This document shows positions 33,398 through 42,578 of a DNA stretch of 64,000 nucleotides, one piece after another. The stretch is taken from contig CM000434.1 of NCBI GenBank assembly GCA_000165345.1, forward strand, positions 192,001 to 256,000, in the 5' to 3' direction. A program made the position numbers and the translations under genes. Below the pieces are notes generated by a model. It was not told where the DNA came from and searched no databases. It worked only from the letters and a program-made list of their open reading frames with translations. How positions within the stretch are numbered: position 1 is the first letter of the stretch; each line of letters starts with the position of its first letter.

Positions 33398-36300
33398 GTG
33401 AATACAAGAGTGAAAGAAATGTCAGCTTTATTCTCGTTAAATTTTAGAAACCAAAACAAATCAAAGCAGGAAAAGGAGGAAAACTTGACTAAAGAGACAA
33501 AAATAGAAAAAATAGAAGTCATGGAATCAAATTTTCAAAAGAATACAGAAAATATGAAATTTACGATTAAAAATGAACAGGTAGAAGATCAACAAGCAGA
33601 TATTTCTATACAAATAAAGGAGTCAAATAATGATAATGAAAAAGATTGTGTGCTTTTACATTCTGATACTTTGAGTAAATACCAAAAACAAAATCTTGAA
33701 ACTTTTGACCCTATAAACTCAAAATGGTACACAGAATTTGACAAAAAGGGACGAATTTCCTGTGTAGGAAGTCATGGAAATATCCGTATTTTAGCTGGGG
33801 ATACTTTAGCTTTAAGATTATATAATGGTACAATTCAAGGTGAGAGCTTTGTTATTACCATAGAAGATTTCTTTGGAAATAGAAAGATTATTCCTCCAAA
33901 AGATACAGATTCTTTAGGAAATTTCTATTGGGACCTAAAAATAACTGAACCAGGCTCTGTTCAAATTTCTATTTCTGTTGTAAATTGCTTTCAAGAATCA
34001 AAAGAAATCATCCAAAAGCTTAATGATAATTTAATAACTAATACAATCATTGTAGAACCAAAACTATATATCAACAATAACTTTATCCCAAGCTCAGGAA
34101 TTTGTATGCAAACAATTCTTAGTCAATGTTTAGGTAATATTCAAAACTGGAAGAGACGCCTTGAAATTACTTCAAAGCTTAATTATAATATGGTTCACTT
34201 TACTCCTTTACAGATTTTTGGCCAATCTGGATCCTGTTATTCCCTAGCAAATCAAAATGAAATATCCTCTTTATTCTTTAATAATGAATTTGATAAAGAC
34301 CAAAGCCAAAATTTGACTAATAAAGATACAAAGTCTATTCAAAATGATACTGAGACTAAAAAAACTTATACACCTGAAGAAAAATATAATTTCCTTAAAC
34401 AAGTTATTAATGAGTTGGAAATAGACTATGGGATCTTATCTGCTTGTGATGTAGTTCTAAATCATACTGCAGATAATTCTCCTTGGTTAAAAGAGCATCC
34501 TGAATCCGGTTATAATTTGGATAACTCTCCTCATCTTACAGCAGCTGTTGAACTTGATCAAAAATTGCAAGAATTCTCAAGAAATATATATCACGGAAAA
34601 TATTTAAATTCATATGGGATTAACAAAAATATTAATAATATTCAAAATGTTGATTCAGTCATTTCAGCTTTAAAGAATGAGGTTATTAACCCTTTCAATA
34701 TTAAAGATTTCTTCACTCTAAATATTAATGAAATCATTCAAAATTCTAAAATGGGTAATTCTTCTCAATCTATATTAGATCCTAAACAAGAAAGAGAGTA
34801 CAATGATATGATTAAGAGAATCAATGAAAATGATACCTTTGAGAATAAAATCTATAATCTATCCCTCTTCTTTTCATGTTCAAGTAGATCCAAGAAAATC
34901 ACAATTCCATCATATATTCTTAAAAAGATGAATCTTTCAAATATTTCAGAAAATATATTGGAAAATGTTCAGAATAGACTCTTTGAGTTTTCTGAACAAA
35001 TTTCAAATAATATTTGTAACTCAATTAGAGGTCTGGTAGTTTGGGAAAGAGTTGAATGTAGCAAAGGGCCAATAGGACTGAATCACTGGGAATCATTAAC
35101 CCCAAGGTACTTTACCCCAATTGAAGATTCTCAAGGAAGGACTCACTATCTCGCAAATAACGGCTGGGTAATGGGATGGAATGCTAAAGAAGACTTTGCT
35201 GCTCCTGGATCTTTTGTTTATCTTAAAAGAGATTTGATTGTTTGGTCTGATTGTGTTAAGCTCAAATATGGAAACTGTGAATCAGAATCTACATTTCTAT
35301 GGAAATGGATGTCTGATTATTGTAAGAGTATTGCAAATATATTCCATGCAATTAGACTTGATAACTGCCACTCTACTCCTCTCCATGTTGCTAAACATAT
35401 GCTCAGAGTATGTAGGGAGACCAGACCAAATATATGGGTATATGCTGAACTTTTCACTGGTGACTACGAAGTAGATTTAGAATTTGAAAGAACTCTTGGA
35501 CTTAATGCTTTAATTAGAGAAGCTATGAGAGCTGAAACACCAGGATCTTTAGGGAATTACGTAAGCAACTATAGTACAGCTCCAATTGGAGGCTTATCCA
35601 CGGTTCCAAGTTTATTCCAAGCAGTTAATTCCGAGAATCTAAATAAAAAGAGTAACCAAGAAACTCTTATATCACTTCCTATACTGCAAGGAGCTAAACC
35701 TCTCAAGAGACTCTCATGTCCAGCAATCTTCTTTGATTGTACTCATGATAATGAAACTCCTTGCGAAATCCGTACTCCTATTGACACTTTACCAACAGCA
35801 GCTTTGGTTGCTTCAACTAATTGTGCTCTTGGCTCTACCAGAGGTTTTGATGAGATTGTACCTCATAATATTAGTGTAGTATCTGAAAGACGACTTTATC
35901 AAAACTATATTGTCAATGTTAATGGAGATGAAAAAAGTCAACCTAAAGGCAAAGAATCAATAGAATTAAGCTTAAGATCAAGATCTAATAGTTTTGGTCC
36001 ATTTCAGAAACTTGCTAGTAATTATCTCACAGAGCCTTCTACAATTAACTGGAACTTTGGAAAAATCAAAAGTAATAATTCCAATATCTCCACAGAAATT
36101 ACTGTTGAATGGAGACATCCTGCCAATACTGTTGAAATACGTGGAGATTGGGATGACTGGAAAGAAGGTATTCAACTTGAGAAACATCCAAACGGTAACT
36201 TTATCGCAAAACTCTTTATTAGGTTTGGAATGAAGCCAGAACAAACTCAAATTCATGATCAAGAAAGTAAGAGTCATAACTCATCCAAAATTATTTATCC

Positions 36301-39094
36301 AATTAACCATCGTCTACAATATGAATATAAGTACATTGTAGATGGGAATTGGATGCATGATCCAAATCTACCCTATACTTCAGATGATAAAGGAAATACC
36401 AATAATATTATTACACTATTAAAGAGGCAAAGATCTATTGCTATGGTATCAAAATGGAAGCATGGTGATCAGCTTCCTGGCATTATGAGTGCCAGAAAGA
36501 TTCTTAATAAGTTACACCAACAAATGGCTTTGTTTGGGTTCAATGAATCTCATGTACACTATCTCACTTCAGATATTTTGATGGTTCAGAGATATAATCC
36601 CAAGATCCAAGAAAATATCTACTTCATTACTCATTCTTCTTTTACTAGAAACAAGATTGATCAACTCCCAGAAACCATTGTATTGGATGGTTGTATTAAA
36701 GATATAGTCTTTGCCGGTTCTTTGTTTGTTCCAAACTACACTTCAGTATATAAAAATGATACAAATAGAATACATGGATTAGATTCAGAGCTTCATAAAT
36801 ACAAGAAACTTGAAGAAATCTCAGCCTACTCTTACGATCCTGTAAAGAATATTACCATTATAAACTTTAACAGATTCCCTCCTGGATCACTAGTAATACT
36901 TCATACAATCAGACATAAAGGATTTTCTGTTACTCAAAATGCATTATTGGAATTCTATAGAAATACACAACAAAGCTTACCAAAAATTCTTACCAATTGT
37001 CTGGAATCTGATCATTGTCATCCTTCTGATGCTATTAATTATATTCTATTTAGCTGTAACAACGAAGAACTTGACAGAAGCTCAGGAAGTAGAGGAGTAT
37101 ACAATGTTCCAAATCTTGGAGATTTTGTCTATTGTGGGATTTATAGCTGTATACATGCTTTTGATACTGCAAGAAAAATGGAAGATAATGGTACTAATCA
37201 TCCATTTGTTTTACATCTTAAACAAGGACCTTGGTATATTAATTATGTAATTCAAAGATTAAAGGAATATAAAGGTACTGGATTTAATGGACATAAAAAA
37301 TCTTATCCAAACTATTTGGAAAACTCAGAATCTGAGAATATTCGTCCATTATCAGAACTTGCCGAATGGATTGAGGTACAGTACTCTTTGATAAACAAAA
37401 TAGCAAATATACCAATAGAGTATATTATATCCTATATAGATATGATGTTTTCTTCCATTTACAGAAATATCTTATATTACGTTTTAAATAGTGACAAAAG
37501 TAAAGTTTTACTTGAAACAAGTTCAAAAGATATCTCAGACTTCCTATTAAAACAAGATCCTTTATATATTCATCTTCAACTAGCTACTTATCAGGTATAT
37601 TCTTATGTACCATCATCTCCTTTAATTTGGAATTCCAAGATCCCATCTATTTCTGCAGGACTCCCTCACTTTTCAACAGGATTCATGAGAAGTTGGGGAA
37701 GAGATACATTTATTGCATTTAATGGTATTTTAATTTCTTCTAAAAGATATTTAGAAGCAAAACAAGAGATTCTTGGAGTTGCAAGGCTGATGAGGCATGG
37801 TTTAATTCCAAATCTGATAGACTCTGGAAATAGGCCGAGATATAATGCAAGAGATGCAACATGGTTCTTTTTGAATGCAGCTCTTGATTATTGTGTTAAT
37901 ATCCCAAATGGATATCAAATCCTAAATGAGGATATTGAACTTAGATTCACATTAAATCTTGAGGAAGATTTGTCAAAGTTCAAGGAAGCTTTTGAATGGC
38001 TAAAAATTAAATTTGATTATACTCAAAGTGAAAGAAAGGACCTTAAAAATATTCGAATACTTAAATTTTCCGATATTATACAATATATTATGGTAAAACA
38101 CGTTGTAGGTATTAAATTTAGAGAGGAAAATGCTGGAGTTCAGTTGGATGAGCAAATGACGGACTTGGGATTCAATATTGAAGTAAATTGGGACCCTTCT
38201 AATGGTTTAATTTTTGGTGGAAATATCCATAACTGTGGAACCTGGATGGATAAGATGGGTTCATCTGTGAAAGCTAATAATAAAGGAATTCCATCTTCTC
38301 CAAGAGATGGAGCAGACATTGAAATAATTGCTCTTTTATATTCATGTATTAATCATCTAATTACCCTTCAAAATTTAAATAGATTCCCTCATAAAGGAGT
38401 GACTCATCCAGGTTCTGGTTACATTTCTTATTCAGACTGGTCAAAACTTATTAAAACAAACTTTGAACGTTGTTTCTATATTCCTTCTTGCGATAGTAAT
38501 GAATATTATGTTGACAGTAAAATTGTGAATAGAAGAGAAATTTATAAAGATACTTTCAAATCAACCCATGGATGGACAGACTATCAACTCAGATGTAATC
38601 TTGCTGTAGCAATTGGTGTTTCAAAAGATCTATTTGATCATGAGCATGCTATTAAAAGTATTGAAGCTGTTGAGAAGTATTTATTCTCTCCAAATATGCT
38701 TGGAATTAAGACATTAGATCCATCAGATTATAATTATAGGCCTAATTATGATAATTCTAATGATTCTGAAGATTATAAAATAGCTCATGGATTTAACTAT
38801 CATCAAGGTCCTGAATGGGTTTGGCCTATGGGACATTTTCTTATGGCAAAATATCAACTCTTAAAGGAAAAATACGAAAAAACTATTAGTACTGAAAAAG
38901 CCACCAAGTTAGCTATTTCTGAAACAATGAAATATCTGATGAACCATAGAAATCACATAATTTCGGACCAATGGGGTTCTTTGCCAGAGCTCACTAATGA
39001 CAACGGATCATTTTGCAAAGATAGTTGTTTTGCCCAAGCTTGGTCAGTTGGTACCATTTTGTATTTCCTTACATCTGTAATGAATAATCAATAG
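33398..39094 (+). CDS. Glycogen/amylopectin debranching enzyme, combining 4-alpha-glucanotransferase and amylo-1,6-glucosidase. It carries an internal AMPK-beta-type CBM48 glycogen-binding module. 1898 aa.
   Basis: The first in-frame ATG is about 33419; the ORF-track start is a GTG. The transferase region matches GDE (DNCHSTPLHVAKHMLRVCRETRPNIWVYAELFTGDYEVDLEFERTLGLNALIREAMRA). The glucosidase region matches GDE (GFMRSWGRDTFIAFNGILISSKRYLEAKQEILGVARLMRHGLIPNLIDSGNRPRYNARDATWFFLNAALDYC). The CBM48-like block is WRHPANTVEIRGDWDDWKEG...YEYKYIVDGNWMHDPNLPYTSDDKGNTNNII. Confidence 0.85.
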   Translation: MNTRVKEMSALFSLNFRNQNKSKQEKEENLTKETKIEKIEVMESNFQKNTENMKFTIKNEQVEDQQADISIQIKESNNDNEKDCVLLHSDTLSKYQKQNLETFDPINSKWYTEFDKKGRISCVGSHGNIRILAGDTLALRLYNGTIQGESFVITIEDFFGNRKIIPPKDTDSLGNFYWDLKITEPGSVQISISVVNCFQESKEIIQKLNDNLITNTIIVEPKLYINNNFIPSSGICMQTILSQCLGNIQNWKRRLEITSKLNYNMVHFTPLQIFGQSGSCYSLANQNEISSLFFNNEFDKDQSQNLTNKDTKSIQNDTETKKTYTPEEKYNFLKQVINELEIDYGILSACDVVLNHTADNSPWLKEHPESGYNLDNSPHLTAAVELDQKLQEFSRNIYHGKYLNSYGINKNINNIQNVDSVISALKNEVINPFNIKDFFTLNINEIIQNSKMGNSSQSILDPKQEREYNDMIKRINENDTFENKIYNLSLFFSCSSRSKKITIPSYILKKMNLSNISENILENVQNRLFEFSEQISNNICNSIRGLVVWERVECSKGPIGLNHWESLTPRYFTPIEDSQGRTHYLANNGWVMGWNAKEDFAAPGSFVYLKRDLIVWSDCVKLKYGNCESESTFLWKWMSDYCKSIANIFHAIRLDNCHSTPLHVAKHMLRVCRETRPNIWVYAELFTGDYEVDLEFERTLGLNALIREAMRAETPGSLGNYVSNYSTAPIGGLSTVPSLFQAVNSENLNKKSNQETLISLPILQGAKPLKRLSCPAIFFDCTHDNETPCEIRTPIDTLPTAALVASTNCALGSTRGFDEIVPHNISVVSERRLYQNYIVNVNGDEKSQPKGKESIELSLRSRSNSFGPFQKLASNYLTEPSTINWNFGKIKSNNSNISTEITVEWRHPANTVEIRGDWDDWKEGIQLEKHPNGNFIAKLFIRFGMKPEQTQIHDQESKSHNSSKIIYPINHRLQYEYKYIVDGNWMHDPNLPYTSDDKGNTNNIITLLKRQRSIAMVSKWKHGDQLPGIMSARKILNKLHQQMALFGFNESHVHYLTSDILMVQRYNPKIQENIYFITHSSFTRNKIDQLPETIVLDGCIKDIVFAGSLFVPNYTSVYKNDTNRIHGLDSELHKYKKLEEISAYSYDPVKNITIINFNRFPPGSLVILHTIRHKGFSVTQNALLEFYRNTQQSLPKILTNCLESDHCHPSDAINYILFSCNNEELDRSSGSRGVYNVPNLGDFVYCGIYSCIHAFDTARKMEDNGTNHPFVLHLKQGPWYINYVIQRLKEYKGTGFNGHKKSYPNYLENSESENIRPLSELAEWIEVQYSLINKIANIPIEYIISYIDMMFSSIYRNILYYVLNSDKSKVLLETSSKDISDFLLKQDPLYIHLQLATYQVYSYVPSSPLIWNSKIPSISAGLPHFSTGFMRSWGRDTFIAFNGILISSKRYLEAKQEILGVARLMRHGLIPNLIDSGNRPRYNARDATWFFLNAALDYCVNIPNGYQILNEDIELRFTLNLEEDLSKFKEAFEWLKIKFDYTQSERKDLKNIRILKFSDIIQYIMVKHVVGIKFREENAGVQLDEQMTDLGFNIEVNWDPSNGLIFGGNIHNCGTWMDKMGSSVKANNKGIPSSPRDGADIEIIALLYSCINHLITLQNLNRFPHKGVTHPGSGYISYSDWSKLIKTNFERCFYIPSCDSNEYYVDSKIVNRREIYKDTFKSTHGWTDYQLRCNLAVAIGVSKDLFDHEHAIKSIEAVEKYLFSPNMLGIKTLDPSDYNYRPNYDNSNDSEDYKIAHGFNYHQGPEWVWPMGHFLMAKYQLLKEKYEKTISTEKATKLAISETMKYLMNHRNHIISDQWGSLPELTNDNGSFCKDSCFAQAWSVGTILYFLTSVMNNQ

Positions 39095-40436: not shown

Positions 40437-42578
40437 TTAATAAATAATTTGAGAATCTTTTTCGGAAATATTAAGAGGTAATAAAATATTGACATATTTA
40501 TCTTTAGATATAGATTTGAAAAAGCTTGCATTCTTCCAAGAAACTCCATTTTTTTTATAAATAGATTCAGGATCATCTTTTCCAGTATAATGGGGATCTA
40601 CCAACAAATATTGGACATTATTAGGGTTAAAAGGAGAAGAAGGATCTTTTGAAATTTGAATTGCTACTAATAAATACGAATAATCTCCAATACTAAGAAT
40701 TATTGGTGTTGAGACATTTTGAAAATGATCAGAAATTGTATTATAATCTTTAAGAAATTCTTCAATATCATAAAAGTATTTTAATTTACAAGAAATTCCA
40801 AGATACATCATTAAAAGATATGAAGCTTCAACAGTTCCAATCCAAATTTTTGATCCAATTTCAAGGTTGCTATGTGTTGGATCATTTTTTCTTAAGAAAT
40901 CTTGAATTTCTGGTATTGTCAAAATATGTTTATTAGTATAATTATTAATAAGGTACCAACTAAATACCATTTGAAGAGATCTATAAGTACAACCCCAACC
41001 AATATCTTTGAAATTATCATGATTATAATGATAATAGTAAAAATCTCCATAACATTGGTAAATTATAGGTAGTTTTAATTTTTGTTTTCTTGGGTAATTT
41101 GGATCTAAATTCAAATCAAAATTTCCATCAAAATCTAATTCAAGATCTTGATCTAAATCTAAATCTAAACCATTATTAATAAATTCTTCCGAGTCTGTTT
41201 TATTCTTATTTAGATCAAAATTAGTTTTTTTGTCTTTTATCTTTGAATTTTTTAATTTCATTTGTTCAATCAGAAATAAATGTGGTGAGACAAGCTTGTC
41301 GTGATAGTATTTAATATTTTCTGGTTCATTCTTAGGCTTTGGAATTAGTGCAAGATTCTTAGTAATGGATGGTATTAAGGGATAAATATTGAGTATATTT
41401 GACCAAAGCTTTCTAAGAGCTTTTTTGTCAGAGTTATTTTCAAATAGAATTCCAGTATTAAGAAGAGTTATTGGGAAAGAAATATGGGAAACTTTGAATA
41501 AATAAAATTCAAATTCATAGTTATCTGAAAATGTTGTTGATGAAGAATAAAGTTGTGAATAATAAAAAAGACGAGTTGGATTATTTACCCTTTCTTTAAT
41601 GTAATTACATTGGTTAATGAAACATTTTTTAATCGTATTTTGAAAAGACATTAACTCATCATTATCCTTGAGCTTAAAGATACAGGCTTGGAGATGTAAG
41701 TTAATTTTCTGAAAAGATTTCTCATCATTATTAGTAATTGTATAGGATGTAAAGAAATGAGAATTTGAATTTTCATTCGAATTTGATTCAATATGTTGAA
41801 TATTTTGAGAAAAAAAGACTGGAATTTGTATTGGGAAAGAATTCAAATCTTTGTTGATGAATTTGTAATTTTTATTGTAATTATAGATATTTAAAAATTG
41901 ATGATAATTATTATTGAGAGAATTTGGGGTTTGTACAACCAAATTTGATTCAATAATTTCTTCAATAGATGAAATATTTGAATCAATTTGGTTACTTTCG
42001 TGGGAATTTGTAGATAAAATTGGCAAAGAAATATGAATTTCACAAGAGTAAAATTGTCCAATTTCTGAAAGATCCTTAATCATCTTTATTCTTGAATCAG
42101 GAATCAAATAATTTGCATTTTGATTTATTAGAAAAATCTTTAATGATGATATAACTGAAAGAATATTAAAATCTGGAACAATCACTAAATTTGGAAAGTC
42201 ATTTGGATTCCAAAACTTTCCATATTTATTATTATGTTTTTTATAATCCACTTTAATTATATTAATCCATTCTGAACAATCTGATTTGCTTTGTATTGAA
42301 CCTAAAATTGTAAATCCTTCAGGTAAACTAATTATTATATCTTCAATAAATTCAGTAATAGATTTGTCCCAATCCAAACAGTTGAGTTTAACAACATCTG
42401 ATATTATCACTATATTTCTATTAGAAATTCTGTTTTTCTTATAGTACCCTATTGCAAAATATTTAGCATTAATTGATTCTCCAATTTCATCTTGAGCAAT
42501 TTCAAGTCTATTCAAGTTGTTTAAGAGGCTATCCAATATGTAAATATCAAAGTTTTCCAGTTCATTTATTATACTCAT
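40437..42578 (-). CDS. Ufm1-specific protease-like cysteine peptidase (family C78), with a long N-terminal non-catalytic region. 713 aa.
   Basis: The C-terminal catalytic block shows the C78 Cys box (GWGCTYRSLQMVFSW) and the downstream DPHYTG motif (LVDPHYTGKDD), as recalled for UfSP1/2. This rests on memory, not on a search. Confidence 0.5.
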   Translation of the reverse strand: MSIINELENFDIYILDSLLNNLNRLEIAQDEIGESINAKYFAIGYYKKNRISNRNIVIISDVVKLNCLDWDKSITEFIEDIIISLPEGFTILGSIQSKSDCSEWINIIKVDYKKHNNKYGKFWNPNDFPNLVIVPDFNILSVISSLKIFLINQNANYLIPDSRIKMIKDLSEIGQFYSCEIHISLPILSTNSHESNQIDSNISSIEEIIESNLVVQTPNSLNNNYHQFLNIYNYNKNYKFINKDLNSFPIQIPVFFSQNIQHIESNSNENSNSHFFTSYTITNNDEKSFQKINLHLQACIFKLKDNDELMSFQNTIKKCFINQCNYIKERVNNPTRLFYYSQLYSSSTTFSDNYEFEFYLFKVSHISFPITLLNTGILFENNSDKKALRKLWSNILNIYPLIPSITKNLALIPKPKNEPENIKYYHDKLVSPHLFLIEQMKLKNSKIKDKKTNFDLNKNKTDSEEFINNGLDLDLDQDLELDFDGNFDLNLDPNYPRKQKLKLPIIYQCYGDFYYYHYNHDNFKDIGWGCTYRSLQMVFSWYLINNYTNKHILTIPEIQDFLRKNDPTHSNLEIGSKIWIGTVEASYLLMMYLGISCKLKYFYDIEEFLKDYNTISDHFQNVSTPIILSIGDYSYLLVAIQISKDPSSPFNPNNVQYLLVDPHYTGKDDPESIYKKNGVSWKNASFFKSISKDKYVNILLPLNISEKDSQIIY

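What the first reader, a model, noticed from the sequence alone, without database searches (positions are those of the whole stretch)
33398..39094. The debranching enzyme carries an embedded AMPK-beta-type CBM48 glycogen-binding module
Between the glucanotransferase and glucosidase halves there is a ~100-aa block (WRHPANTVEIRGDWDDWKEG...YEYKYIVDGNWMHDPNLPY...GNTNNII). It reproduces the hallmarks of the AMPK-beta / CBM48 carbohydrate-binding module, including the terminal NNII motif. To my knowledge animal and fungal debranching enzymes do not carry such a module, although this should be checked. An inserted glucan-binding domain would make sense for an enzyme working on semi-crystalline amylopectin granules, the storage glucan of Cryptosporidium-type parasites. 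It could be a lineage-specific adaptation and a discriminating feature against the host enzyme.
Basis: partly seen in the sequence, partly recalled or inferred. Interest (0 to 1): 0.5.

Follow-up and report, generated by a model that had tools for sequence, protein, structure and literature searches.

The report
Starch-binding module inside parasite debranching enzyme
The Cryptosporidium glycogen/amylopectin debranching enzyme really does carry an inserted AMPK-beta-type sugar-binding module that the human and fungal enzymes lack, but the insertion is shared by at least some members of every major alveolate group sampled (other apicomplexans, chromerids, a dinoflagellate, a ciliate) and public domain databases already flag it.

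Summary
Confirmed. The ORF is the C. parvum chromosome 6 debranching enzyme (annotated start ATG 33419, 1891 aa). Residues 897-1006 (ORF numbering; nt 36086-36415) match Pfam AMPK1_CBM (PF16561, the AMPK-beta branch of CBM48) at 59-69 bits against a cut-off of 26.8. The AlphaFold model of the module superposes on AMPK beta CBM crystal structures. The module lies in a ~190-aa insertion between yeast GDE residues 717 and 723, at the glucanotransferase/central-domain junction.

The sugar-contact residues W100, K126, W133 and N150 (AMPK numbering) are kept in 59-60 of 60 distinct GDE modules. The AMPK regulatory S108 and the AMPK complex-binding domain are absent.

The module is absent from fungal, animal, Anaeramoeba, Pharyngomonas and Nolandella GDEs. 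It is present at the same site in eight Cryptosporidium species, coccidia, Gregarina, Chromera, Vitrella, the dinoflagellate Breviolum and the ciliate Blepharisma. It is therefore old and widespread in alveolates. It is not Cryptosporidium-specific and not strictly tied to amylopectin storage.

The most likely role is a tethered alpha-glucan anchor for the enzyme; this is inferred, not tested. The stored Pfam annotation already lists the domain. I found no paper describing it. Interest is moderate to low.

The parts
33419..39094 (+). Coding sequence of the C. parvum indirect debranching enzyme (4-alpha-glucanotransferase / amylo-alpha-1,6-glucosidase), 1891 aa plus stop codon
   Evidence: Continuous ORF. 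An identical 1891-aa product is annotated in NCBI assemblies, including BX526834.1 (C. parvum chromosome 6). It is 98% identical to C. hominis Gdb1p.
34082..35437 (+). Glucanotransferase (GH13-type) domain, Pfam hDGE_amylase, ORF residues 229-680
   Evidence: 388.5 bits. The GH13 motifs RLDNCHS, AELF and THDNE align with those of yeast GDE.
35903..36478 (+). Insertion of about 190 aa relative to yeast GDE (ORF residues 836-1027), falling between Candida glabrata residues 717 and 723
   Evidence: phmmer alignment to 5D06/11TN: query 828 aligns with 717 and query 1021 with 723, in ATG numbering.
35903..36085 (+). Upstream linker (ORF residues 836-896). It is variable in sequence and predicted unstructured.
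   Evidence: pLDDT is below 50 with no secondary structure in the context model. The stretch is poorly conserved within the genus apart from one motif.
35975..36004 (+). Conserved RSRSNSFGPF motif in the linker (annotated residues 853-862); R-SRSNS-x-GPF is invariant in eight Cryptosporidium species. Possible basophilic-kinase phosphosite.
   Evidence: Alignment of 8 Cryptosporidium species. The phosphosite reading is inference only. Toxoplasma debranching enzyme is listed as a CDPK2 substrate in PMC9254107.
36086..36415 (+). AMPK-beta-type CBM48 module (ORF residues 897-1006; annotated residues 890-999)
   Evidence: PF16561 at 59-69 bits. AF2 core pLDDT is above 90 with eight of the nine modelled beta strands (the ninth lies in the loop insert). 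Foldseek top hits are AMPK beta CBMs, TM 0.82-0.86 normalised to the target, E about 1e-7.
36158..36160 (+). Trp equivalent to AMPK beta1 W100 (annotated W914), a sugar-stacking platform
   Evidence: Alignment. Conserved in 60/60 GDE modules. W100G abolishes glycogen binding in AMPK beta1 (PMC6274970).
36227..36301 (+). Cryptosporidium-specific loop insert of about 25 aa inside the module (ORF residues 944-968)
   Evidence: Absent or shorter in other lineages. Variable within the genus. Low pLDDT.
36329..36331 (+). Lys equivalent to AMPK beta1 K126 (annotated K971)
   Evidence: Conserved in 60/60. K126Q abolishes glycogen binding in AMPK beta1.
36350..36352 (+). Trp equivalent to AMPK beta1 W133 (annotated W978)
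   Evidence: Conserved in 59/60. W133 mutations impair glycogen binding.
36401..36406 (+). Asn-Asn equivalent to AMPK beta1 N150-N151 (annotated N995-N996), the 'NNII' motif
   Evidence: Conserved in 59/60 and 60/60.
36416..36478 (+). Short downstream linker (ORF residues 1007-1027) containing the conserved LLKRQRS
   Evidence: Low pLDDT. Conserved within the genus.
36479..37261 (+). Central (M2) domain, Pfam hGDE_central, ORF residues 1028-1288
   Evidence: 197.6 bits.
37631..39061 (+). Amylo-alpha-1,6-glucosidase (GH133) domain, Pfam GDE_C, ORF residues 1412-1888
   Evidence: 343.1 bits.

Best explanation
The block is a genuine, folded AMPK-beta-type CBM48 carbohydrate-binding module. It was inserted, flanked by flexible linkers, at the junction between the glucanotransferase and central domains of the indirect debranching enzyme. 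The insertion is old: it probably dates to an early alveolate ancestor and was inherited by Cryptosporidium. The proposed mechanism is inferred. The two tryptophans (annotated W914 and W978) stack on an alpha-1,4-glucan helix, while K971 and N995 hydrogen-bond to it, as in AMPK beta. This would anchor the enzyme on the storage polyglucan (amylopectin granules in Cryptosporidium) and raise the local concentration of phosphorylase-limit branches for the two active sites. All GDE modules have the AMPK beta2-type loop length after the first tryptophan. In AMPK that feature goes with a preference for alpha-1,6-branched oligosaccharides, so the module may favour branch regions. Shown here: domain identity, predicted fold, residue conservation, insertion site, taxonomic distribution. 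Inferred: glucan binding, anchoring role, branch preference.
For: HMM: PF16561 at 59 bits in the whole protein and 69 bits on the segment, cut-off 26.8. Sequence: the closest solved relatives are AMPK beta2/beta1 CBM, LSF1 and SEX4. Fold: the AF2 core has pLDDT above 90, and Foldseek top hits are AMPK beta CBMs, including cyclodextrin complexes 4YEE/4YEF (TM 0.8-0.86 of target) and SEX4. Binding residues: W100, K126, W133, N150 and N151 equivalents are kept in 60, 60, 59, 59 and 60 of 60 distinct GDE modules from apicomplexans, chromerids, dinoflagellates and ciliates. Mutating W100, K126 or W133 abolishes or weakens glycogen binding in AMPK beta1 (PMC6274970). The beta2-like 5-residue spacing after W100 is found in 60/60, and its link to branched-sugar preference is described in PMC6274970. 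Insertion site: between yeast residues 717 and 723. Linkers: low pLDDT with no secondary structure on both sides of a confident module. Distribution: the module is at the same junction in all 23 myzozoan homologues. An exhaustive profile search found 32 GDE cluster representatives with it. All 10 divergent ones tested pass the Pfam cut-off. Named carriers include Gregarina, Blepharisma and Breviolum. The AMPK-specific features (S108, AMPKBI domain) are absent. That fits a plain glucan-binding role rather than a kinase-complex role.
Against: No binding experiment exists for this module. L146 and T148, which also matter in AMPK beta, are not conserved: K and N in C. parvum, with L146 variable across lineages. 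The 25-aa loop insert could alter the binding face. The context model has low overall confidence (mean pLDDT 54.8, 9-sequence alignment), so the 'flexible tether' picture is weak evidence. Yeast and human GDE work on glycogen without such a module, so it is not required for catalysis. The single-origin claim rests on the shared insertion site and on module-bearing sequences being contiguous in a crude NJ tree. That tree did not recover them as a clean clade. Only one named ciliate and one named dinoflagellate were identified.
Confidence: 0.7

Rival explanations
1. The module arose, or is kept, specifically as an adaptation to semi-crystalline amylopectin/starch granules in starch-storing alveolates.
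For: Every named starch- or amylopectin-storing alveolate lineage sampled has it: Cryptosporidium, coccidia, Gregarina, chromerids and the dinoflagellate Breviolum. Plant starch-granule proteins SEX4 and LSF1 use the same CBM48 branch and are among the closest structural and sequence hits. Glycogen-using fungi and animals lack it.
Against: The ciliate Blepharisma stoltei has two GDE paralogues with the module, passing Pfam at 36.9 bits and listed as PF16561. A clade of 15 related unnamed sequences also has it. Ciliates are generally regarded as glycogen storers (own knowledge, not checked here). If so, the insertion predates or is independent of the switch to crystalline starch.
Confidence: 0.2
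2. The module is mainly a protein-protein or regulatory element rather than a glucan anchor. It could be an intramolecular docking domain, or a covalent version of the GDE-AMPK beta CBM contact reported in mammals (a 'Rosetta stone' fusion).
For: Mammalian GDE is reported to bind AMPK beta1 residues 68-123, which lie within the CBM, and this does not depend on the glycogen-binding residues (Sakoda et al. 2005, as summarised in PMC6274970). In the AMPK structures retrieved, the CBM packs against the kinase. Conserved basophilic motifs (RSRSNS, KRQRS) flank the module. Toxoplasma debranching enzyme is a reported CDPK2 substrate (PMC9254107).
Against: The residues conserved across lineages as distant as apicomplexans, dinoflagellates and ciliates are exactly the sugar-contact residues. 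The AMPK regulatory S108 is not conserved. No AMPK complex-binding domain is present. The flanks are predicted to be flexible, with no confident packing.
Confidence: 0.12
3. The module is a decayed remnant or neutral spacer with no function of its own.
For: It tolerates loop inserts: about 25 aa in Cryptosporidium and about 62 aa between the two matched halves in a sarcocystid sequence. L146 and T148 are not conserved.
Against: Key residues are conserved 59-60 of 60 across very distant lineages. All ten divergent copies tested pass the Pfam cut-off, at 30-62 bits. The predicted core is confident.
Confidence: 0.04
4. Chance similarity, assembly error or gene-model artefact.
For: None found.
Against: E = 3e-19 to Pfam. 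The module is in frame within one continuous ORF. The product is identical in the independent assemblies examined. It is conserved in eight Cryptosporidium species.
Confidence: 0.01

Closest known systems
AMPK beta1/beta2 carbohydrate-binding module (CBM48; Pfam PF16561; PDB 1Z0M, 2F15, 4YEE, 4YEF)
   Same: Best HMM, sequence and fold match. The W100, K126, W133, N150 and N151 sugar-contact residues are kept, as is the beta2-type loop length after W100.
   Different: Here the module is embedded in an enzyme, not in a kinase scaffold subunit. There is no AMPKBI complex-binding domain, no S108 regulatory site, and L146/T148 are replaced. There is an extra 25-aa loop.
Plant starch-associated proteins with the same CBM48 branch: glucan phosphatases SEX4 and LSF1 (PDB 3NME, 4PYH, 8J5D), and PTST proteins
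   Same: An AMPK-beta-type CBM48 is fused to, or recruits, an enzyme that acts on starch. SEX4 and LSF1 are in the hit lists. PTST1 papers appear under the AMPK1_CBM search term.
   Different: The catalytic partner is different (phosphatase or synthase targeting, rather than a debranching enzyme). In those proteins the module is C-terminal, or the protein is separate; it is not an internal insertion.
Fungal and human indirect debranching enzymes (C. glabrata 5D06, S. cerevisiae 7EIM, human 8ZEQ)
   Same: Same three catalytic/central Pfam domains in the same order, 33-37% identity, and shared GH13 catalytic motifs.
   Different: They run straight from residue 717 to 723 where the alveolate enzymes have about 190 extra residues including the CBM48. 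They have a recognisable hGDE_N domain (PF14699), which is not detected in any alveolate GDE.
Direct debranching and branching enzymes with an N-terminal CBM48 (isoamylase, pullulanase, branching enzyme; Pfam PF02922)
   Same: A CBM48 attached to a GH13 enzyme that acts on alpha-1,6 branches. PF02922 hits two of the divergent GDE modules, above its cut-off in one and below in the other.
   Different: A different CBM48 branch: PF02922 does not hit the window protein. It is N-terminal rather than internal, and the enzyme type differs (single GH13 hydrolase versus two-activity GH13+GH133 enzyme).
TgLaforin split CBM20 (Toxoplasma glucan phosphatase)
   Same: An apicomplexan starch-metabolism enzyme whose sugar-binding module is interrupted by low-complexity loops while keeping the Trp/Lys/Trp binding triad (PMC9254107). 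Compare the loop inserts here.
   Different: A different CBM family (CBM20 versus CBM48), much longer inserts, and experimentally validated binding.

Membership tests
CBM48, AMPK-beta branch (Pfam AMPK1_CBM, PF16561) | Profile-HMM score above the curated gathering cut-off | tested here: met
   59.0 bits (whole protein) and 66-69 bits (segment), against a cut-off of 26.8.
CBM48, AMPK-beta branch (Pfam AMPK1_CBM, PF16561) | Beta-sandwich fold superposable on solved AMPK beta CBM structures | tested here: met
   This is a predicted model only. Core pLDDT is above 90. Foldseek top 50 hits are all AMPK beta, SNF1 beta or SEX4 CBMs, with TM 0.78-0.86 normalised to isolated-CBM targets.
CBM48, AMPK-beta branch (Pfam AMPK1_CBM, PF16561) | Conserved carbohydrate-contact residues (W100, K126, W133, N150 in AMPK beta1 numbering) | tested here: met
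   All four are present in the window protein (W914, K971, W978, N995) and in 59-60 of 60 GDE modules. L146 and T148 are not conserved.
CBM48, AMPK-beta branch (Pfam AMPK1_CBM, PF16561) | Demonstrated binding to glycogen, starch or cyclodextrin | not testable with these tools
   This needs recombinant protein and binding assays.
AMPK/SNF1 beta subunit | C-terminal alpha/gamma-binding domain (Pfam AMPKBI) and the regulatory S108 | tested here: not met
   No AMPKBI hit in the Pfam scan at E up to 1. The S108 position is His here and variable across GDE modules. The protein is not an AMPK beta subunit.
Eukaryotic indirect debranching enzyme (GH13_25 + GH133) | Glucanotransferase, central and amylo-1,6-glucosidase domains in that order | tested here: met
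   PF14701 at 388 bits, PF14702 at 198 bits, PF06202 at 343 bits. E = 1e-242 to solved yeast GDE.
Eukaryotic indirect debranching enzyme (GH13_25 + GH133) | GH13 catalytic motifs of the transferase site (nucleophile Asp in R-x-D-N-C-H, acid/base Glu in A-E-L-F, Asp in T-H-D-N) | tested here: met
   RLDNCHS, AELF and THDNE align with the yeast motifs in the printed alignment. The assignment of roles to these motifs is from general GH13 knowledge.
Eukaryotic indirect debranching enzyme (GH13_25 + GH133) | Glucosidase-site catalytic residues | not tested
   The printed alignment was cut off before that region.
Eukaryotic indirect debranching enzyme (GH13_25 + GH133) | Recognisable N-terminal domain (Pfam hGDE_N, PF14699) | tested here: not met
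   No hit at E up to 1. PF14699 is absent from the lists of all alveolate GDEs but present in most fungal and animal ones. It may be diverged rather than missing.
Direct debranching enzymes (isoamylase/pullulanase type) with N-terminal CBM48 (PF02922) | PF02922-type CBM48 at the N-terminus of a single GH13 catalytic domain | tested here: not met
   PF02922 does not hit the window segment even at E up to 10. The module is internal and the enzyme is of the two-activity type.

The most novel reading that the evidence does not exclude
The module is not just an anchor. It sits on flexible linkers exactly between the transferase half and the rest of the enzyme, and it has the AMPK beta2-type pocket associated with alpha-1,6-branched sugars. 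It could therefore hold the branch region while the stub is passed from the transferase site to the glucosidase site. On a related reading, it is a covalent 'Rosetta stone' counterpart of the mammalian GDE-AMPK beta CBM interaction, which would imply that this contact is ancient and functionally important.
Probability: 0.12. Interest if true: 0.6.

Novelty: new variant of a known kind. Interest (0 to 1): 0.33.

Why it matters
Cryptosporidium oocysts and sporozoites, and Toxoplasma bradyzoites, rely on stored amylopectin, and the debranching enzyme is needed to use it fully. A sugar-binding module present in the parasite enzyme and absent from the human enzyme is a clear structural difference. 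It gives a simple handle for experiments: point mutants of W914, K971 or W978, or deletion of the module, would test how the enzyme finds its substrate. For evolution, a shared insertion at one site in apicomplexans, chromerids, a dinoflagellate and a ciliate is a candidate rare genomic change marking Alveolata. It also shows that the module probably predates parasitism and may predate crystalline starch storage. None of this overturns current understanding. CBM48 modules on alpha-glucan enzymes are common, and domain databases already flag this one.

Tried and rejected
1. A word-indexed homologue search with a profile of the module plus flanks was swamped by low-complexity words. It returned only 13 hits and did not recover its own query sequences, so it is useless for distribution. 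I replaced it with the exhaustive HMMER search.

2. A neighbour-joining tree of 197 GDEs was built on the 339 flanking columns. Module-bearing sequences are contiguous, with no module-lacking sequence among them. However, they form a grade rather than a clean clade, the internal branches are 0.005-0.04, and fungi are split across the tree. Deep nodes are therefore unreliable and I do not use the tree as proof of a single origin.

3. The context structure model of 551 aa has mean pLDDT 54.8, too low to say how the module sits relative to the catalytic domains. I used it only for the contrast between the confident module and the low-confidence linkers.

4. Seven literature searches found no paper describing a CBM48 in an indirect debranching enzyme or in the apicomplexan enzyme. 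The library lacks most subscription journals, so this is not proof that none exists.

5. The weak Pfam hit Ssb-like_OB at residues 23-88 (E = 0.24, 12 bits against a cut-off of 24) lies in a low-complexity N-terminus and I treat it as chance.

6. Most divergent module-bearing representatives come from unnamed metagenome or transcriptome assemblies and could not be assigned to organisms. Whether Tetrahymena, Paramecium or Perkinsus have the module was not determined.
Full report
**What is in the sequence.**
- The window has about 30% G+C. It carries one continuous ORF at 33398..39094 on the + strand.
- The GTG start comes from bacterial-code ORF calling. The product starting at ATG 33419 (1891 aa) is identical to the annotated protein in NCBI assemblies, including BX526834.1, the C. 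parvum chromosome 6 record.
- It is 98% identical to C. hominis Gdb1p.

**Domain identity.** Pfam finds four domains above their cut-offs:

| Domain | ORF residues | Score (bits) | Cut-off |
|---|---|---|---|
| hDGE_amylase | 229-680 | 388 | 27 |
| AMPK1_CBM (PF16561) | two stretches; best stretch 959-1009 | 59 | 26.8 |
| hGDE_central | 1028-1288 | 198 | 27 |
| GDE_C | 1412-1888 | 343 | 21 |

- On the excised segment the AMPK1_CBM score rises to 66-69 bits, E = 3e-19. No other family is hit even at E up to 10.
- Against PDB sequences, the best non-GDE relatives are AMPK beta2 and beta1 CBMs (E = 5e-8 to 1e-6), then the plant glucan phosphatases LSF1 and SEX4.
- An AlphaFold2 model of residues 881-1020, built on a 20-sequence alignment, has mean pLDDT 78.6. 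Seventy-three residues are above 90, and the core is a beta sandwich.
- Foldseek against the PDB returns only AMPK beta, SNF1 beta and SEX4 CBMs in the top 50. These include the cyclodextrin complexes 4YEE and 4YEF, with TM 0.8-0.86 normalised to the isolated CBM and E about 1e-7.

**Where it sits.**
- Aligned to the solved Candida glabrata GDE (5D06), the Cryptosporidium protein matches up to yeast residue 717. It resumes at yeast residue 723.
- In between are about 190 extra residues, annotated 829-1020.
- The insertion is therefore at the junction of the glucanotransferase domain and the central (M2) domain. It does not abut the glucosidase domain.
- The module proper is ORF residues 897-1006.
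- In a 551-aa context model the module is confident (blocks at 82-87). About 75 residues before it and about 20 after it have pLDDT below 50 and no secondary structure.
- That model is poor overall (mean pLDDT 54.8), so this only suggests a module on flexible tethers.

**Sugar-binding residues.**
- Mutagenesis summarised in PMC6274970 shows that W100G and K126Q abolish glycogen binding by AMPK beta1, and W133 mutations impair it.
- I aligned 60 distinct GDE modules from all lineages found:

| AMPK beta1 position | Conservation in GDE modules | C. parvum residue (annotated) |
|---|---|---|
| W100 | 60/60 | W914 |
| K126 | 60/60 | K971 |
| W133 | 59/60 | W978 |
| G147 | 50/60 | G992 |
| N150 | 59/60 | N995 |
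| N151 | 60/60 | N996 |
| L146 | variable | K991 |
| T148 | N in 48/60 | N993 |
| S108 (AMPK regulatory site) | not conserved | His |

- C. parvum residue numbers are.
- All 60 modules have five residues between the W100 and L105 equivalents, as in beta2. Beta1 has four. In AMPK this extra residue is linked to a pocket that favours alpha-1,6-branched sugars. The relevance of this to a debranching enzyme is my inference.

**Distribution.**
- In the first homologue search, PF16561 is listed for every apicomplexan and chromerid GDE. These are eight Cryptosporidium species, Toxoplasma, Neospora, Besnoitia, Cystoisospora, Eimeria, Cyclospora, Vitrella and Chromera.
- PF16561 is listed for none of the roughly 95 fungal and animal GDEs. 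Most of those carry PF14699 (hGDE_N) instead.
- A local search places the module at the equivalent position in all 23 myzozoan proteins.
- I then ran an exhaustive HMMER search of 1.84 billion cluster representatives, using a profile of the module plus flanks. It gave 228 hits at E <= 1e-30.
- Among the best 150, 32 GDE representatives carry the module at the junction. The rest match the profile as two stretches that skip it.
- Ten divergent carriers all pass the Pfam cut-off, at 30-62 bits.
- Named carriers now include:
  - Gregarina niphandrodes;
  - the ciliate Blepharisma stoltei, with two paralogues;
  - the dinoflagellate Breviolum minutum.
- Named non-carriers include Anaeramoeba, Pharyngomonas, Nolandella, insects, a fish and a bivalve.
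- The insertion is therefore widespread across alveolates and absent from the opisthokont, amoebozoan, discoban and metamonad GDEs that were named.
- A crude NJ tree on the flanks keeps the carriers contiguous but does not resolve them as a clade. A single ancient insertion is the most economical reading. It rests mainly on the shared insertion site.

- The domain call is right, and so is the contrast with animal and fungal enzymes.
- The idea that the module is a Cryptosporidium-type adaptation to semi-crystalline amylopectin is weakened. A ciliate has it, and ciliates are generally regarded as glycogen storers (my own knowledge, not checked here).
- The module may still be especially useful on granules. 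The closest non-AMPK relatives, SEX4 and LSF1, act on starch.

**Most likely mechanism.**
- I propose a tethered alpha-glucan anchor. The Trp/Lys/Trp/Asn face binds a glucan chain on the storage particle and keeps the two catalytic sites near phosphorylase-limit branches.
- Confidence that it is a genuine AMPK-beta-type CBM48 is very high. Confidence that it binds glucan and serves as an anchor is about 0.7.
- Rivals:
  - a starch-specific adaptation (0.2; it overlaps with the main model);
  - a protein-protein or regulatory role (0.12), suggested by the reported binding of mammalian GDE to AMPK beta1 residues 68-123 independent of glycogen binding (Sakoda 2005, via PMC6274970);
  - a decayed spacer (0.04);
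  - an artefact (0.01).

**Comparison with what is known.**
- It works like, and is a member of, the AMPK-beta branch of CBM48.
- It is not an AMPK beta subunit, because there is no AMPKBI domain and no S108.
- It is not the isoamylase-type N-terminal CBM48, because PF02922 does not hit the window protein.
- The host protein is a standard indirect debranching enzyme, except for the insertion and an undetectable N-terminal domain.

**Novelty.**
- The stored Pfam annotation of this exact protein already lists PF16561, so the domain is visible to anyone who looks at the database entry.
- Seven full-text searches found no paper that describes or discusses it. The library lacks most subscription journals.
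- I rate it a new variant of a known kind: a CBM48 on an alpha-glucan enzyme, but internal, of the AMPK-beta type, in the indirect enzyme, and widespread in alveolates.
- Interest is moderate to low.

**Other observations.**
- Cryptosporidium has a genus-specific loop of about 25 aa inside the module.
- A sarcocystid-like GDE mislabelled as pika (Ochotona princeps) has a longer insert, about 62 aa between the two matched halves of the module, in the corresponding region. This recalls the split CBM20 of TgLaforin.
- Two basophilic motifs, RSRSNSxGPF upstream and LLKRQ[RK]S downstream, are conserved within the genus in otherwise variable linkers.

Noticed in passing
window 33398-33421: The ORF's GTG start at 33398 comes from bacterial-code ORF calling. 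The annotated eukaryotic start is the first ATG at 33419, giving the 1891-aa product found identically in NCBI assemblies.
   Followed up: yes
window 35975-36004 and 36416-36436: Two basophilic motifs are conserved in all eight Cryptosporidium species compared, inside otherwise variable linkers: RSRSNSxGPF upstream of the module and LLKRQ[RK]S just after it. They look like kinase (AGC/CDPK-type) phosphosites. Toxoplasma debranching enzyme is reported as a CDPK2 substrate (PMC9254107). No phosphorylation data were checked.
   Followed up: partly
window 36227-36301: A loop of about 25 aa (GMKPEQTQIHDQESKSHNSSKIIYP) interrupts the module in a hairpin, which is why Pfam matches it in two stretches. 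It is confined to Cryptosporidium, variable within the genus, and predicted disordered.
   Followed up: yes
P0142 (NCBI XP_058515908.1, labelled Ochotona princeps), residues 934-1122: A partial 'pika' protein is 56% identical to sarcocystid debranching enzymes. It is almost certainly parasite contamination of the host genome assembly. Its CBM48 is matched in two halves (934-996 and 1059-1122) separated by about 62 aa of low-complexity sequence, in the region corresponding to the Cryptosporidium loop.
   Followed up: partly
window 33419-34081 (N-terminal about 220 aa of the enzyme): The N-terminal domain typical of fungal and animal GDE (Pfam hGDE_N, PF14699) is not detected in this protein or in any alveolate GDE in the hit list. 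The first about 100 residues are low-complexity. The rest may be a diverged beta-sandwich, but this was not modelled.
   Followed up: no
P0193 (1812 aa) and P0270 (1409 aa), unnamed cluster representatives: Two proteins that lack the GDE flank regions carry long tandem arrays of CBM48-like repeats: at least 12 copies in P0193 and 7 in P0270. Their organisms and functions are unknown.
   Followed up: no
window 40437-42578 (- strand): The neighbouring 713-aa gene downstream, on the opposite strand, carries a Peptidase_C78 (UFM1-specific protease type) domain according to the stored annotation. It is unrelated to the finding.
   Followed up: no
P0146 and P0286 (Blepharisma stoltei): The ciliate has two GDE paralogues that are 49% identical, and both carry the module. 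A group of unnamed sequences of 1553-1558 aa at 44-46% identity also carries it. These are probably other ciliates but could not be named.
   Followed up: partly
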